Below are positions 51,752-52,273 of a stretch of 64,000 nucleotides of DNA, piece by piece (within the stretch, counting starts at the first letter, position 1; the number at the start of each line of letters is the position of its first letter). The DNA lies in the NCBI GenBank assembly GCA_021323915.1, contig JAJPKB010000642.1:381-64380 (forward strand). The letters run 5' to 3'. Under the pieces are notes generated by a model that was given only the letters and a program-made list of their open reading frames with translations, searched no databases and was not told where the DNA came from. This stretch comes from Chloroflexota bacterium (GTDB lineage Bacteria; Chloroflexota; UBA6077; FW602-bin22; CADDYW01). The position numbers and the translations under genes are program-made.

Positions 51752-52273
51752 TCATGGACATGTAGCCCGACATCTGAAATTGCCTCGGCCCTTGCCACAA
51801 TCGGTACACCCGAAGCCCGGACAACAGGGAGGAGCGTCTGGGGCATCTAGACCGCACGGCTGGTCCTGTGGGGTACAGGGGACTGATTGCGCGAAAGCTG
51901 GTATCGGCGCAACGATGGAGGTGACGAGCGGGACAAGGAGCGCGCTCCCCGCTGCCACTCCCACCTCCTGAATGATCTGACGACGCGACCGTCGCGTCCG
52001 ATCCAGCGAGTCGTCGATCGGTTTGTCTAGCAAGTGTGACTTCTCGAGATGATCCAGACCGAGCCAAATGACGTCCTCGGTAGCTCCAGGATCCACCTCG
52101 CGACGCACGATCTCGAGCAATTGGGTGCTAGAGGTTTGTCCATTGCAGTGGCGCCAGACCGCCGCGGCAATCGGATTCAAGCAGTGAATTTCCTCTCGGT
52201 CGAGGTCATAGACAATCAGCTCGCTCTGGAACTCCTCGATGACCAGGCCTGCCTGACGTGCTCGGGGTATCAT
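51752..52273 (-). CDS. PqqD/RRE-like domain fused to an internal twin-arginine signal-like segment and an 8-Cys C-terminal peptide
   Basis: GAGGAG RBS 5 nt before the ATG. Residues 8-85 are PqqD-like (LVIEEFQSELIVYDLDREEIHCLNPIAAAVWRHCNGQTSSTQLLEIV). Residues 92-128 are TRRSRRQIIQEVGVAAGSALLVPLVTSIVAPIPAFA. Residues 129-173 are QSVPCTPQDQPCGLDAPDAPPCCPGFGCTDCGKGRGNFRCRATCP. Confidence 0.7.
   Translation of the reverse strand: MIPRARQAGLVIEEFQSELIVYDLDREEIHCLNPIAAAVWRHCNGQTSSTQLLEIVRREVDPGATEDVIWLGLDHLEKSHLLDKPIDDSLDRTRRSRRQIIQEVGVAAGSALLVPLVTSIVAPIPAFAQSVPCTPQDQPCGLDAPDAPPCCPGFGCTDCGKGRGNFRCRATCP

What the first reader, a model, noticed from the sequence alone, without database searches (positions are those of the whole stretch)
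51752..52000. Internal twin-arginine signal-like segment followed by a 45-aa peptide with a knottin-type Cys pattern
After the PqqD-like domain comes TRRSRRQIIQEVGVAAGSALLVPLVTSIVAPIPAFA|QS. This has an S-R-R-x-I-I twin-arginine motif, an h-region and an AxA cleavage-type site, but it starts at residue ~92 instead of the N-terminus. The remaining 45 aa read C-x6-C-x9-CC-x4-C-x2-C-x8-C-x3-C (8 Cys), and the C..C..CC..C..C core resembles inhibitor-cystine-knot peptides. There are two readings. It may be an N-in/C-out single-pass protein displaying a disulfide-rich domain (anti-sigma-like topology). Or it may be a precursor whose cytoplasmic RRE leader is removed on export.
Basis: partly seen in the sequence, partly recalled or inferred. 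Interest (0 to 1): 0.65.

Follow-up and report, generated by a model that had tools for sequence, protein, structure and literature searches.

The report
Self-led exported bacterial knottin precursor
This real 173-aa gene joins a cytoplasmic peptide-binding (PqqD/RRE) domain, an internal twin-arginine-type export signal and a spider-toxin-like cystine-knot peptide; it belongs to a very large soil-bacterial family that I found described nowhere.

Summary
Window 51752-52273 (-) encodes a 173-aa protein with three parts:
- A PqqD/RRE domain, residues ~8-88.
- An internal S96-R-R-Q-I-I segment, a 19-23-aa uncharged stretch, then P-I-P-A-F-A128.
- A 45-aa tail with 8 Cys in exactly the reported spacing.

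None of this is chance.
- **Family size:** a profile finds 1,609 protein clusters at E<=1e-30. There are 204 loci in species-representative genomes, mostly Acidobacteriota.
- **Signal features:** RR is kept in 98% of members, the PLVTSIxAP core is near-invariant, and -1/-3 residues are small in 97%/96%. Proline never occurs at +1.
- **Cysteines:** tails are hypervariable, but only 3 of 357 have an odd Cys count. The dominant spacing is C-x6-C-x5-CC-x3-C-x4-7-C.
- **Fold:** the tail models as a knottin. Nearly all structure hits are cystine-knot toxins and related disulfide-rich mini-domains.
- **Tat likeness:** truncated members hit Tat-signal profiles.

The gene follows an HPr-kinase-like gene. 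Elsewhere the operon is kinase, precursor(s), NTP_transf_5, often with a PorU-like C25 peptidase.

Best reading: an exported cystine-knot peptide precursor whose leader is its own RRE domain plus a Tat-like signal. Cleavage versus membrane anchoring, Tat dependence and the kinase's role remain untested. No published description was found.

The parts
51752..52273 (-). P gene: 173-aa precursor (RRE domain, internal Tat-like signal, Cys-rich tail); stop codon at 51752-51754
   Evidence: ORF. Homologues. The exact protein is in public collections on a 70.7-kb contig.
52278..52284 (-). Shine-Dalgarno GAGGAGA, 4 nt before the ATG of P
   Evidence: Read from the sequence.
52010..52252 (-). PqqD/RRE domain, residues ~8-88 (three strands then three helices)
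   Evidence: Pfam PF05402 at 28.1 bits against a 23.4 cut-off. AF2 pLDDT is about 90 or more over most of residues 1-80. Foldseek top hits are the lasso RREs TbiB1 (5v1u/5v1v) and 6jx3, with target TM-score about 0.7.
51980..51988 (-). S96-R97-R98 twin-arginine motif, in the context RRSRRQIIQEVG
   Evidence: Read from the sequence. RR is conserved in 340/347 relatives, with family consensus [S/N/T]-R-R-x-phi-phi-[R/K]-x-[L/I]-G. Tat-profile hits.
51908..51964 (-). h-region V104-A122 (VGVAAGSALLVPLVTSIVA), containing the family-invariant PLVTSIxAP core
   Evidence: Kyte-Doolittle 19-mer mean is 2.07. Logo: P 97%, S 91%, P 100%. AF2 predicts a low-confidence beta-strand at 117-121.
51890..51907 (-). 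c-region P123-I-P-A-F-A128: signal-peptidase-I-type site, predicted cleavage A128|Q129
   Evidence: Across the family, -1 is small in 97.4%, -3 is small or aliphatic in 96%, and +1 is never Pro.
51755..51889 (-). 45-aa Cys-rich tail Q129-P173 (8 Cys): predicted knottin-like mini-protein; S130 is the conserved +2 Ser/Thr
   Evidence: Cys spacing read from the sequence. Aligns to the family's six-Cys framework. AF2 pLDDT is 77. Foldseek hits are nearly all ICK toxins and related disulfide-rich mini-domains. +2 is Thr/Ser in 306/346.
52307..53215 (-). K gene: 302-aa HPr-kinase-related P-loop protein (GRMMTGKST), 33 nt upstream of P on the same strand
   Evidence: TIGR04352 E 9e-15, below cut-off. 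Adjacent to P in 45 of 84 loci examined. More than 3,200 homologues at 50-60% identity.
51653..51723 (-). 31-bp perfect inverted repeat (9-nt loop) about 30 nt after the P stop codon: likely end of the K-P transcription unit
   Evidence: sequence. The simple terminator scan did not list it.

Best explanation
P is the precursor of an exported, disulfide-knotted mini-protein, and its leader is unusually elaborate. The leader (residues 1-128) has two parts. The first is a folded cytoplasmic RiPP-recognition-element (PqqD-like) domain. The second is an internal twin-arginine-type signal peptide, SRRQII plus an h-region containing PLVTSIVAP, ending in a signal-peptidase-type A-F-A site.

Proposed sequence of events:
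1. The protein is made in the cytoplasm.
2. The RRE domain stays on the cis side while the signal inserts as a loop.
3. The 45-aa tail crosses the membrane and oxidises into a four-disulfide knottin: the six family Cys plus the extra pair C159/C172.
4. The tail is then released by cleavage at A128|Q129.

The adjacent HPr-kinase-like protein K is cytoplasmic. So is the NTP_transf_5 enzyme N found in most other genomes. I infer that both act on the cytoplasmic face of the precursor before export, recruited or positioned by the RRE domain. Candidate targets are the invariant Thr-Ser in PLVTSI or the conserved Ser/Thr at +2.

**Shown:** the domain architecture, its conservation, the even-Cys rule, the predicted folds and the operon linkage.
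**Inferred:** topology (~0.85), knottin fold (~0.8), cleavage (~0.55), Tat dependence (~0.5), and K/N modifying P (~0.35).
For: **RRE domain.** Pfam PqqD passes its cut-off. The AF2 model of this domain is confident. Foldseek's best PDB matches are lasso-peptide RREs solved with bound leader peptides.

**Signal.**
- RR is present in 98% of members with a Tat-like consensus. The uncharged stretch has a median of 23 aa.
- The -3/-1 rule is kept in 96-97% of members and +1 is never Pro.
- 55 and 25 of 79 truncated members hit Tat-signal profiles TIGR02811 and TIGR01409. 11 hit PF10518.
- The segment is close to the N-terminal Tat signal of the window's own sugar-binding protein.

**Tail.**
- Even Cys numbers in all but 3 of 357 members; dominant framework C-x6-C-x5-CC-x3-C-x4-7-C.
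- Relatives' tails hit conotoxin, omega-atracotoxin, Toxin_12 and UPF0506 Pfam families.
- The family profile touches spider ICK toxins in the PDB, weakly.
- The tail-only model has pLDDT 77. Nearly all of its 49 Foldseek hits are ICK toxins or related disulfide-rich mini-domains, with target TM-scores of 0.6-0.73 for the toxins.

**Precursor-like evolution.**
- In tandem paralogues the leader is far better conserved than the tail, e.g. 83 vs 40%, 94 vs 69%, 71 vs 28%.
- The same leader carries other extracellular-type cargos: PT-HINT, collagen repeats and a His/Asp-rich tail.

**Processing link.** In L003 the N enzyme is fused to a signal peptidase I domain.

**Operon.** K-P(n)-N are co-directional in most loci. 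K and N lack signal sequences or membrane segments.

**Precedent.** In lasso-peptide clusters, an HPr-kinase homologue phosphorylates a precursor Ser and a nucleotidyltransferase glycosylates the phosphate (PMC8498205).
Against: - No experiment bears on topology, cleavage or modification.
- The Tat-like signal is internal, after a ~95-aa folded domain, which is not how known Tat signals are placed.
- The window's own segment is just below the TIGR01409 cut-off (14.4 vs 16.7 bits).
- The window's tail hits no Pfam toxin family.
- Foldseek E-values for the tail are weak (0.4-10), and the disulfide connectivity could not be read from the model.
- Disulfide-rich peptides are normally exported unfolded by Sec, not by Tat.
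- The h-region is hydrophobic enough (KD 2.07) to be a permanent membrane anchor.
- Its near-invariant sequence is unusual for a plain signal peptide and implies a further, unknown recognition step.
- The window lacks N altogether, so N cannot be essential here.
- Lasso kinases target a C-terminal Ser, which these tails rarely have (5/98).
- L003's P protein has only three residues after the cleavage site.
Confidence: 0.55

Rival explanations
1. Uncleaved bitopic membrane protein. The hydrophobic segment is a permanent N-in/C-out anchor. It holds a cytoplasmic RRE adaptor at the membrane, where it works with K and N. The knottin or other tail is displayed on the outer face as a ligand-binding or sensing module.
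For: - The uncharged stretch has a median of 23 aa and KD about 1.9-2.1, long and hydrophobic enough to span a membrane.
- The PLVTSIxAP core is far more conserved than signal-peptide h-regions usually are.
- L003 keeps the RRE and hydrophobic segment with essentially no tail, so the N-terminal module may have a function of its own.
- In some genomes the cassette lies inside exopolysaccharide or exosortase loci, which are membrane-associated machineries.
Against: - An anchor has no need for a strictly conserved helix-breaker plus A-x-A motif with +1 never Pro.
- The first Cys follows the site by only 2-3 residues, leaving no linker.
- Hypervariable tails behind a conserved N-terminal part, tandem paralogues and swappable cargos look like passenger peptides, not a sensor.
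- Signal peptidase I is fused to N in L003.
Confidence: 0.3
2. Cytoplasmic RiPP-type precursor with its RRE in cis. The 'h-region' is not a membrane segment. It is the leader motif that the RRE binds as an added beta-strand. The Cys-rich core is modified in the cytoplasm and exported by other means.
For: - AF2 models L117-I121 (LVTSI) as a beta-strand.
- The closest structures of the N-domain are RREs crystallised with leader peptides bound as a strand.
- The predicted beta3 strand (AHCLN) and helix alpha3 (HLL) carry several of the most conserved residues of the domain, and the PLVTSI segment is equally invariant. That beta3 and alpha3 line the peptide groove in RREs is from my own knowledge.
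- K and N are tailoring-type enzymes known from lasso clusters.
Against: - The strand has low confidence (pLDDT ~50-64), and its partner strand could not be inspected.
- No radical-SAM, cyclase, protease or transporter gene is conserved next to P.
- The almost perfect even-Cys rule and ICK spacing indicate disulfides, hence an oxidising compartment.
- The RR motif, the uncharged 23-mer and A-x-A together, plus the Tat-profile hits, are not explained.
- Collagen and PT-HINT cargos are extracellular types.

Cis-docking before export is compatible with the best explanation. Only the 'stays cytoplasmic' part is a rival.
Confidence: 0.07
3. Function-level alternative, compatible with either topology. 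The knottin is a dedicated inhibitor or substrate of the secreted PorU-like C25 cysteine peptidase encoded next to the cassette in many Acidobacteriota. It would not be a toxin or signal.
For: - A C25 peptidase with its own signal peptide is directly adjacent and co-directional in 26 of the loci examined.
- From my own knowledge, many knottins are protease inhibitors.
Against: - No C25 gene is present in the window, nor in the closest K-P loci.
- Tail hypervariability argues against one conserved target.
- K and N are linked to P more consistently than C25 is.
Confidence: 0.08

Closest known systems
Discrete lasso-peptide RRE proteins (B1: TbiB1, and the B1 of 6jx3) with their HPr-kinase (K) and nucleotidyltransferase (N) tailoring enzymes
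   Same: - The N-domain has the same three-strand, three-helix fold; these are its best PDB matches.
- It is co-encoded with an HPr-kinase homologue and, in most genomes, an NTP_transf_5 enzyme. This matches phosphorylated and phosphoglycosylated lasso clusters (PMC8498205).
   Different: - No lasso cyclase or B2 protease is among the window's neighbours or the conserved neighbour families.
- The RRE is fused to the putative substrate instead of being a separate protein.
- The fusion includes an export signal.
- The core is a disulfide-rich mini-protein, not a lariat.
- The tails seldom end in the Ser that lasso kinases use.
Twin-arginine (Tat) signal peptides, including internal Tat-dependent segments of actinobacterial Rieske proteins (the Rieske comparison is from my own knowledge)
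   Same: - S-R-R-x-phi-phi motif, a moderately hydrophobic Ala/Gly/Thr/Pro-rich h-region and an A-x-A c-region.
- Tat-profile hits.
- Near-twin of an N-terminal Tat signal in the same window.
   Different: - It lies at residues ~92-128, behind a soluble folded domain, rather than at the N-terminus or after earlier membrane helices.
- The h-region sequence is near-invariant.
- The cargo is a small Cys-rich peptide, with no cofactor-binding domain identified.
Inhibitor cystine knot (knottin) peptides of spiders, cone snails and sponges
   Same: - Six-Cys framework C-x6-C-x5-9-CC-x3-4-C-x4-8-C.
- Predicted hairpin and fold match ICK toxins.
- Conserved prepro region with a hypervariable mature peptide, and multigene tandem arrays.
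   Different: - Bacterial origin.
- The leader is a 128-aa RRE plus an internal signal, not an N-terminal ER signal and propeptide.
- The window's copy has a fourth predicted disulfide and longer loops, and hits no toxin Pfam model itself.
- The knot topology has not been verified.
Long-leader RiPP or bacteriocin precursors (NHLP and Nif11-type leaders; comparison from my own knowledge)
   Same: - A domain-sized conserved leader is followed by a short processing motif and a hypervariable, often Cys-rich core.
- Several paralogous precursors sit beside shared enzymes.
   Different: - The leader here is an RRE fold plus an export signal with A-x-A, not a nitrile-hydratase-like or Nif11-like domain with Gly-Gly.
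- No C39 peptidase-ABC exporter is conserved beside it.
- No modification has been demonstrated.
HPr-rel-A system of NCBIfam/TIGRFAMs (TIGR04352 kinase, TIGR04353 PqqD-family chaperone)
   Same: A PqqD-like protein is paired with an HprK-related kinase. These are the best NCBIfam hit for K and one of the weak hits for a relative's P.
   Different: - Scores are far below the curated cut-offs: K 54.5-60 vs 200, and P 17.6 vs 35.
- My recollection is that those PqqD proteins are stand-alone, without signal or tail. I did not check this.

Membership tests
PqqD / RiPP recognition element (PF05402) | Profile match above the curated cut-off | tested here: met
   28.1 bits against a 23.4 cut-off, residues 18-68.
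PqqD / RiPP recognition element (PF05402) | Winged-helix fold with three strands followed by three helices | tested here: met
   AF2 strands at 10-15, 18-23 and 28-32; helices at 34-41, 49-59 and 66-78; pLDDT about 90 or more. Foldseek hits TbiB1 and 6jx3 with target TM-score about 0.7.
PqqD / RiPP recognition element (PF05402) | Binds a leader peptide as an added beta-strand | not testable with these tools
   The only hint is a low-confidence predicted strand at 117-121.
Tat signal peptide | S/T-R-R-x-F-L-K-type motif, moderately hydrophobic h-region, A-x-A c-region | tested here: met
   The window has SRRQIIQ...AFA. Family logo. The -3/-1 rule is kept in 96-97%.
Tat signal peptide | Profile match (TIGR01409 or PF10518) above cut-off | tested here: not met
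   The window segment scores 14.4 bits against a 16.7 cut-off and does not hit PF10518. Among 79 relatives, 25 hit TIGR01409 and 55 hit TIGR02811 at E<=1 (best 1e-4 and 6e-5).
Tat signal peptide | Located at the N-terminus of the precursor | tested here: not met
   It starts at about residue 92, after the RRE domain, and the ORF is continuous in all homologues. An in-frame ATG two codons before RR exists in 35/93 relatives but not in the window.
Tat signal peptide | Export depends on TatABC and the RR pair | not testable with these tools
   Needs genetics (tat mutant, RR to KK).
Inhibitor cystine knot (knottin) | Six Cys in a C-C-CC-C-C framework with canonical loop lengths | tested here: met
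   Window Cys 133/140/150/151/156/168 align to the family's six invariant Cys. The dominant family pattern is 6-5-0-3-4..7.
Inhibitor cystine knot (knottin) | Fold similarity to solved knottins | tested here: inconclusive
   Nearly all 49 Foldseek hits are ICK toxins or related disulfide-rich domains, with target TM-scores of 0.6-0.73 for the toxins and rmsd 1.4-3 A. E-values are only 0.4-10 and model pLDDT is 77.
Inhibitor cystine knot (knottin) | Disulfide connectivity I-IV, II-V, III-VI with the third bond threading the ring | not testable with these tools
Needs MS disulfide mapping or NMR.
Inhibitor cystine knot (knottin) | Match to a curated knottin or toxin sequence family | tested here: not met
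   The window tail hits no Pfam family. Among 79 relatives, 28 hit Conotoxin_I2, 22 Omega-toxin, 11 Toxin_12 and 11 UPF0506, at weak E-values (best about 1e-5).
Lasso peptide biosynthetic cluster | Asn-synthetase-like cyclase (C) and transglutaminase-like leader peptidase (B2) next to the RRE | tested here: not met
   Window neighbours are K, a LysM-C39_2 protein, a sugar ABC transporter and a dehydrogenase. The conserved neighbours across the loci examined are only K, N and C25.
HPr-rel-A system (TIGR04352 / TIGR04353) | Kinase and PqqD protein score above the equivalog cut-offs | tested here: not met
   K scores 54.5 bits against 200. The window P does not list TIGR04353. L028's P scores 17.6 against 35.
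   The N-domain is an RRE. The upstream gene is the kinase, and no sigma factor gene was identified next to the pair.
Bacterial lipoprotein (lipobox before the first Cys) | L-[AS]-[GA]-C lipobox at the end of the signal | tested here: not met
   The window has A-Q-S-V-P-C. The family has A-[A/S]-[T/S]-C with Ala, not Leu, at -3. Lipidating the first Cys would also break the even-Cys rule.

The most novel reading that the evidence does not exclude
This could be a previously unrecognised and very abundant class of bacterial ribosomal peptides: 'self-led' knottins. The precursor would carry its own RiPP recognition element as a cytoplasmic leader. That domain would hold its own Tat-type signal peptide (PLVTSIVAP) in cis, like a built-in Tat proofreading chaperone. 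It would present a conserved Ser/Thr to an HPr-kinase-like enzyme and an NTP_transf_5 enzyme for phospho-(glyco)sylation. Only then would the peptide be exported, cleaved at A-x-A and oxidised into a hypervariable cystine-knot effector (toxin, protease inhibitor or signal). If so, ICK-type peptides would be a major, diversifying secreted arsenal of soil Acidobacteriota, Chloroflexota and Armatimonadota. It would also be a new way of coupling post-translational tailoring to export.
Probability: 0.2. Interest if true: 0.9.

Novelty: new variant of a known kind. Interest (0 to 1): 0.75.

Why it matters
- **Knottin biology.** Knottins are known mainly as animal, plant and fungal toxins and inhibitors, and are prized drug scaffolds. 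The KNOTTIN database paper notes that bacterial knottins have no experimental structure (PMC5753296). This family would add thousands of natural, hypervariable bacterial sequences with a defined genetic context.
- **RRE biology.** RREs are taken as markers of peptide-modifying pathways in which they bind a separate precursor. Here the RRE is fused upstream of an export signal and the presumed product. That suggests either a built-in signal-peptide chaperone or a new precursor logic.
- **K/N enzymes.** It gives a testable handle on the unexplained HprK-like and NTP_transf_5 pairs found widely in soil bacteria.
- **Protein export.** It offers a natural case of a Tat-like signal placed behind a folded domain.
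- **Annotation.** These proteins are currently named only 'PqqD family peptide modification chaperone' or 'hypothetical protein', which hides the exported Cys-rich half.

Tried and rejected
**Rejected readings**
- *ORF artefact or overlapping-frame noise.* The overlapping ORFs on the other strand and in other frames lack the support this ORF has: a Shine-Dalgarno, a hairpin after the stop, and thousands of homologues.
- *Lipoprotein.* The residues before the first Cys do not form a lipobox, and lipidation would break the Cys parity.
- *Conserved internal translation start giving a plain Tat pre-peptide.* An ATG lies two codons before RR in only 35/93 members. The rest mostly have non-start Ile or Leu codons. 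There is no Shine-Dalgarno enrichment (14/93). The window has CGG.
- *Separate stand-alone knottin genes in related loci.* None were found with a tail HMM.
- *General link to exosortase/PEP-CTERM.* Seen clearly only in L087, with L062 doubtful. Polysaccharide genes are near only a minority of loci.
- *The LysM-Peptidase_C39_2 neighbour as the leader peptidase.* It is not among the conserved neighbour families in related loci.
- *N enzyme elsewhere in the window.* No homologue in 64 kb. The closest K-P loci, L084/L085, also lack it.
- *Membership of TIGR04352/TIGR04353.* Scores are far below the cut-offs.

**Searches that led nowhere**
- K has no sequence match among solved structures.
- Nine full-text searches and two targeted reads found no description of this architecture.
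- Only DNA metagenome runs (soil, mine, rhizosphere) hold the locus, so no expression data were obtained.
- I could not inspect model coordinates. The partner of strand 117-121 and the disulfide pairing therefore remain unknown.
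Full report
**1. What is in the window.** Window 51752-52273 on the minus strand is a 173-aa ORF starting at ATG. A GAGGAGA Shine-Dalgarno lies 4 nt upstream. A 31-bp perfect inverted repeat (51653-51683 / 51693-51723) follows about 30 nt after the stop. The tail has Cys at 133, 140, 150, 151, 156, 159, 168 and 172, which gives C-x6-C-x9-CC-x4-C-x2-C-x8-C-x3-C. Residues 18-68 match Pfam PqqD above its cut-off, 28.1 against 23.4 bits. 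The exact protein is in public collections on a 70.7-kb contig. Near-identical DNA occurs in soil, mine and rhizosphere metagenomes.

**2. It is a member of a very large family.** A first search found 12 relatives at 35-45% identity. A profile of these, scored against 1.84 billion cluster representatives, gave 1,609 proteins at E<=1e-30 and 5,640 at E<=1e-10. A scan of one genome per species found 204 loci. The 80 kept are mostly Acidobacteriota metagenome-assembled genomes (Blastocatellia, Pyrinomonadaceae), with a few labelled Methylomirabilis, Nitrospinota and others. Where these proteins carry a name in the sources shown, it is 'hypothetical protein', 'PqqD' or 'PqqD family peptide modification chaperone'. 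No NCBIfam model reaches its cut-off.

**3. The signal-like segment is conserved in detail.**
- RR is present in 340 of 347 distinct relatives. The context is [S/N/T]-R-R-x-phi-phi-[R/K]-x-[L/I]-G.
- The core that follows is nearly fixed. It reads A-(L/V/I)-P(97%)-(L/V)-V-T-S(91%)-I-V-A(87%)-P(100%)-T-(P/A)-A-Q-A(92%)-(A)-(T/S, 88%)-C.
- The uncharged run has a median of 23 residues.
- At the predicted cleavage site, -1 is small in 97.4% and -3 is small or aliphatic in 96%. Position +1 is never Pro (0/346) and +2 is Thr/Ser in 306/346.
- I cut 79 members to begin six residues before the RR motif and scanned them. 55 hit TIGR02811 (formate-dehydrogenase-region Tat target, best 6e-5). 25 hit TIGR01409 (Tat signal, best 1e-4). 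Several others hit known Tat substrates. 11 hit Pfam TAT_signal.
- The window's own segment scores 14.4 bits on TIGR01409 against a cut-off of 16.7.
- A control from the same organism is informative. The sugar-binding protein at 49892-51448 (-) starts with ...SRRTLLRALGVTTGAALIPLAAAC. That is the same architecture as P's SRRQIIQEVGVAAGSALLVPLVTSIVAP.
- P's best 19-mer has Kyte-Doolittle 2.07. This lies between that Tat signal (1.59) and true permease helices (2.2-2.4).

**4. The tail is a knottin-like, disulfide-bonded passenger.**
- Among 357 members, Cys counts after the signal are 6 (236), 8 (79), 10 (16), 12 (10) and 14 (3), with only three odd. This near-perfect parity is what all-paired disulfides predict. 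The dominant spacing is C-x6-C-x5-CC-x3-C-x4-7-C.
- The window's Cys 133/140/150/151/156/168 align with the six invariant Cys. C159 and C172 fall in window-specific insertions, as an extra pair would.
- Precomputed and fresh Pfam scans place many relatives' tails in ICK toxin families: Conotoxin_I2 28/79, Conotoxin 23, Omega-atracotoxin 22, Toxin_12 11, UPF0506 11. E-values are weak, best about 1e-5, and the window's own tail hits none.
- The family profile also touches spider ICK toxins in the PDB by sequence, at E 0.09-0.9.
- AlphaFold2 models the tail at pLDDT 76-86 in the full-length protein and 77 alone.
- Foldseek of the tail-only model returns 49 PDB hits. Nearly all are ICK toxins or related disulfide-rich mini-domains. 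Examples are spider toxin 2h1z (39% identity), psalmotoxin, agelenin (rmsd 1.4 A, target TM-score 0.73), omega-grammotoxin, a muO-conotoxin and the sponge asteropsins, along with IGFBP-N, colipase and Dickkopf. E-values are weak (0.4-10), as expected for 45 residues.
- I could not read the disulfide connectivity, so 'knottin' is a well-supported prediction, not a demonstration.

**5. The N-domain is a genuine RRE.** The model has strands at 10-15, 18-23 and 28-32 and helices at 34-41, 49-59 and 66-78, with pLDDT about 90 or more. Its best PDB matches are lasso-peptide B1 proteins solved with their leader peptides: TbiB1 (5v1u/5v1v) and 6jx3, with target TM-score about 0.7. RRE domains of sactipeptide, cyanobactin and streptide enzymes follow. 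The most conserved residues include the predicted strands beta2 and beta3 (LVYDLD, AHCLN) and helix alpha3 (HLL). From general knowledge of RREs, beta3 and alpha3 form the peptide-binding groove. AF2 also draws L117-I121 as a beta-strand, but at pLDDT about 50-64 and with a partner I could not inspect. Cis-docking of the signal on the RRE is therefore a lead, not a result.

**6. Genomic context.**
- In the window, P lies 33 nt downstream of a 302-aa HPr-kinase-related P-loop protein, K (52307-53215, -). K hits TIGR04352 at E 9e-15, far below its cut-off.
- Across 83 related loci plus the window, I clustered the neighbours within 6 kb. Two families are conserved. K is in 45 loci, the window among them. 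A ~360-aa NTP_transf_5 protein, N, is in 50 loci.
- The commonest arrangement is co-directional K, then P, then N (23 loci as a plain triplet, with further variants). P is often present as tandem copies, up to four in L057.
- A secreted PorU-like Peptidase_C25 protein directly flanks the cassette in 26 loci.
- K and N have no signal or membrane segments.
- The window has no N homologue anywhere in its 64 kb. The loci with the most similar K (L084/L085, 60% identity) also show K then P with no N nearby.
- K itself has more than 3,200 homologues at 50-60% identity. Those that carry organism names come from Armatimonadota, Chloroflexota and Acidobacteriota, and all named ones are 'hypothetical'.
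- In two larger genomes the cassette sits in exopolysaccharide loci. One (L087) has a PEP-CTERM protein, EpsI and an exosortase. This is not general.
- In L003, N is fused to a signal peptidase I domain (TIGR02227, E 1e-30). There P ends three residues after its A-S-A site.

**7. Evolutionary behaviour.**
- In tandem paralogues the leader is much better conserved than the tail: 83 vs 40%, 94 vs 69%, 79 vs 46%, 75 vs 36%, 71 vs 28% identity.
- The same RRE-plus-signal module also carries non-knottin cargos. These are a Pretoxin-HINT domain (P0067, E 1.4e-21), collagen triple-helix repeats (P0010), a His/Asp-rich tail (P0120), double knottins with 12-14 Cys, and a ~190-aa domain (P0074).
- A conserved leader, a hypervariable Cys-framework core, gene arrays and swappable extracellular-type cargos are the signature of a secretion or processing leader with passengers.

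**8. Most likely mechanism.** P is made in the cytoplasm. The RRE domain stays inside while the RR-signal inserts as a loop. The tail crosses the membrane, is oxidised to a four-disulfide knot, and is released by cleavage at A128|Q129.
- *Shown:* architecture, conservation, Cys parity, predicted folds and operon linkage.
- *Inferred, with my estimates:* N-in/C-out topology with an extracytoplasmic tail (~0.85); knottin fold (~0.8); cleavage rather than anchoring (~0.55); Tat rather than Sec or YidC insertion (~0.5); K (and N elsewhere) acting on the cytoplasmic face of P before export (~0.35).
- *Precedent for K and N.* In lasso clusters an HPr-kinase homologue phosphorylates a Ser of the linear precursor, and a nucleotidyltransferase adds hexose to that phosphate (PMC8498205).
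- *Candidate sites here.* These are the invariant Thr-Ser of PLVTSI and the +2 Ser/Thr (S130 in the window). The +2 residue is kept even in the tail-less L003 protein (…ASA|YSW). The tails do not end in Ser (5/98), so the lasso rule does not transfer directly.

**9. Rivals.**
- *(a) Uncleaved bitopic protein displaying the tail (0.3).* The segment is long and hydrophobic enough, and unusually invariant. However, an anchor does not explain the strict SPase-type site, the missing linker or the cargo behaviour.
- *(b) Cytoplasmic RiPP precursor whose 'h-region' is only an RRE-bound leader (0.07).* This fits the predicted strand and the RRE homology. It does not fit the even-Cys rule, the RR/A-x-A/Tat-profile evidence, or the absence of Cys-modifying enzymes nearby.
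- *(c) Dedicated inhibitor or substrate of the neighbouring C25 peptidase (0.08).* This is a function-level option. No C25 gene is in the window.

**10. Comparison with what is known.** The parts are familiar: an RRE, a Tat-like signal, an ICK framework, and K/N tailoring enzymes. The combination is not. It fails the membership tests for a lasso cluster (no cyclase or B2), for TIGR04352/TIGR04353 (below cut-offs), for a canonical Tat signal (internal position; window score just under cut-off), for lipoproteins and for anti-sigma factors. Nine full-text searches and two targeted reads found no description of an RRE fused to an export signal and a Cys-rich peptide, nor of this K-P-N cassette. 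The KNOTTIN database paper mentions 'bacterial knottins' only as sequences without experimental structures (PMC5753296). I therefore rate it a new variant built from known kinds, of high interest, with the function still open.

Noticed in passing
window 51653-51723: A 31-bp perfectly complementary inverted repeat with a 9-nt loop lies between the P stop codon and the promoter region of the downstream sugar-transporter operon. The stem is unusually long for a terminator. A perfect 12/12 sigma-70-like promoter (51474-51447, minus strand) follows it.
   Followed up: partly
window 53427-54416 (+): Divergently transcribed from K is a 329-aa protein with a LysM domain and a Peptidase_C39_2 domain. 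It is not conserved next to the family elsewhere, so it is probably unrelated to P processing.
   Followed up: partly
window 49892-51448 (-): The sugar ABC substrate-binding protein carries a Tat-type lipoprotein signal (SRRTLLRALGVTTGAALIPLAAAC). This suggests the organism uses Tat, and it is a near-twin of P's internal segment.
   Followed up: yes
window 45545-47122 (-): A 525-aa protein has a C-terminal Mrr_cat restriction-endonuclease domain and a long unannotated N-terminal part. It sits among metabolic genes.
   Followed up: no
L028:9758-12823, L008:9702-12779, L009:1194-6941 and 23 other loci: Large secreted Peptidase_C25 proteins sit directly beside the K-P-N cassette, co-directional. 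They resemble the T9SS sortase PorU (221 bits against a 420 cut-off). They could be the maturation peptidase, a sortase-like enzyme, or the target of the knottins.
   Followed up: partly
L087:6001-11072 and L086:6001-12936: Here the order is K, then a 264-271-aa surface-type protein, then P, then N, all inside exopolysaccharide loci. In L087 the extra protein has a PEP-CTERM signal (VPEPS, hydrophobic segment, KRKK), and the locus has Wzy_C, glycosyltransferases, EpsI and an exosortase. In L086 the extra protein has a weak LPXTG-like hit, and the locus has Wzz and Poly_export. The P tails here have only 4 Cys.
   Followed up: partly
L003:2238-5428: P ends three residues after its A-S-A site (…ASAYSW). 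The downstream NTP_transf_5 protein is fused to a signal peptidase I (S26) domain. This is the only such fusion among the loci examined.
   Followed up: partly
P0067, P0158, P0010, P0120, P0074 (family members from metagenomes): The same RRE-plus-signal leader carries other cargos: Pretoxin-HINT or intein-like domains, collagen triple-helix repeats, a His/Asp-rich tail, and a ~190-aa domain. The PT-HINT case hints at a link to polymorphic toxin systems.
   Followed up: partly
93 family genes in L001-L083 (e.g. L028:8268-8459): An in-frame ATG lies exactly two codons before the RR pair in 35 of 93 members (…G-M-S-R-R…), without Shine-Dalgarno enrichment. The window has CGG. It may be a relic of a fusion between a PqqD gene and a Tat pre-peptide gene, or an optional internal start.
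   Followed up: yes
window 52180-52146 (residues C31 and C43 of P): Two Cys in the cytoplasmic RRE domain (H-C-L-N and C-x-G) are invariant or nearly so across the family. Their role (metal site, redox, structural) is unknown.
   Followed up: no
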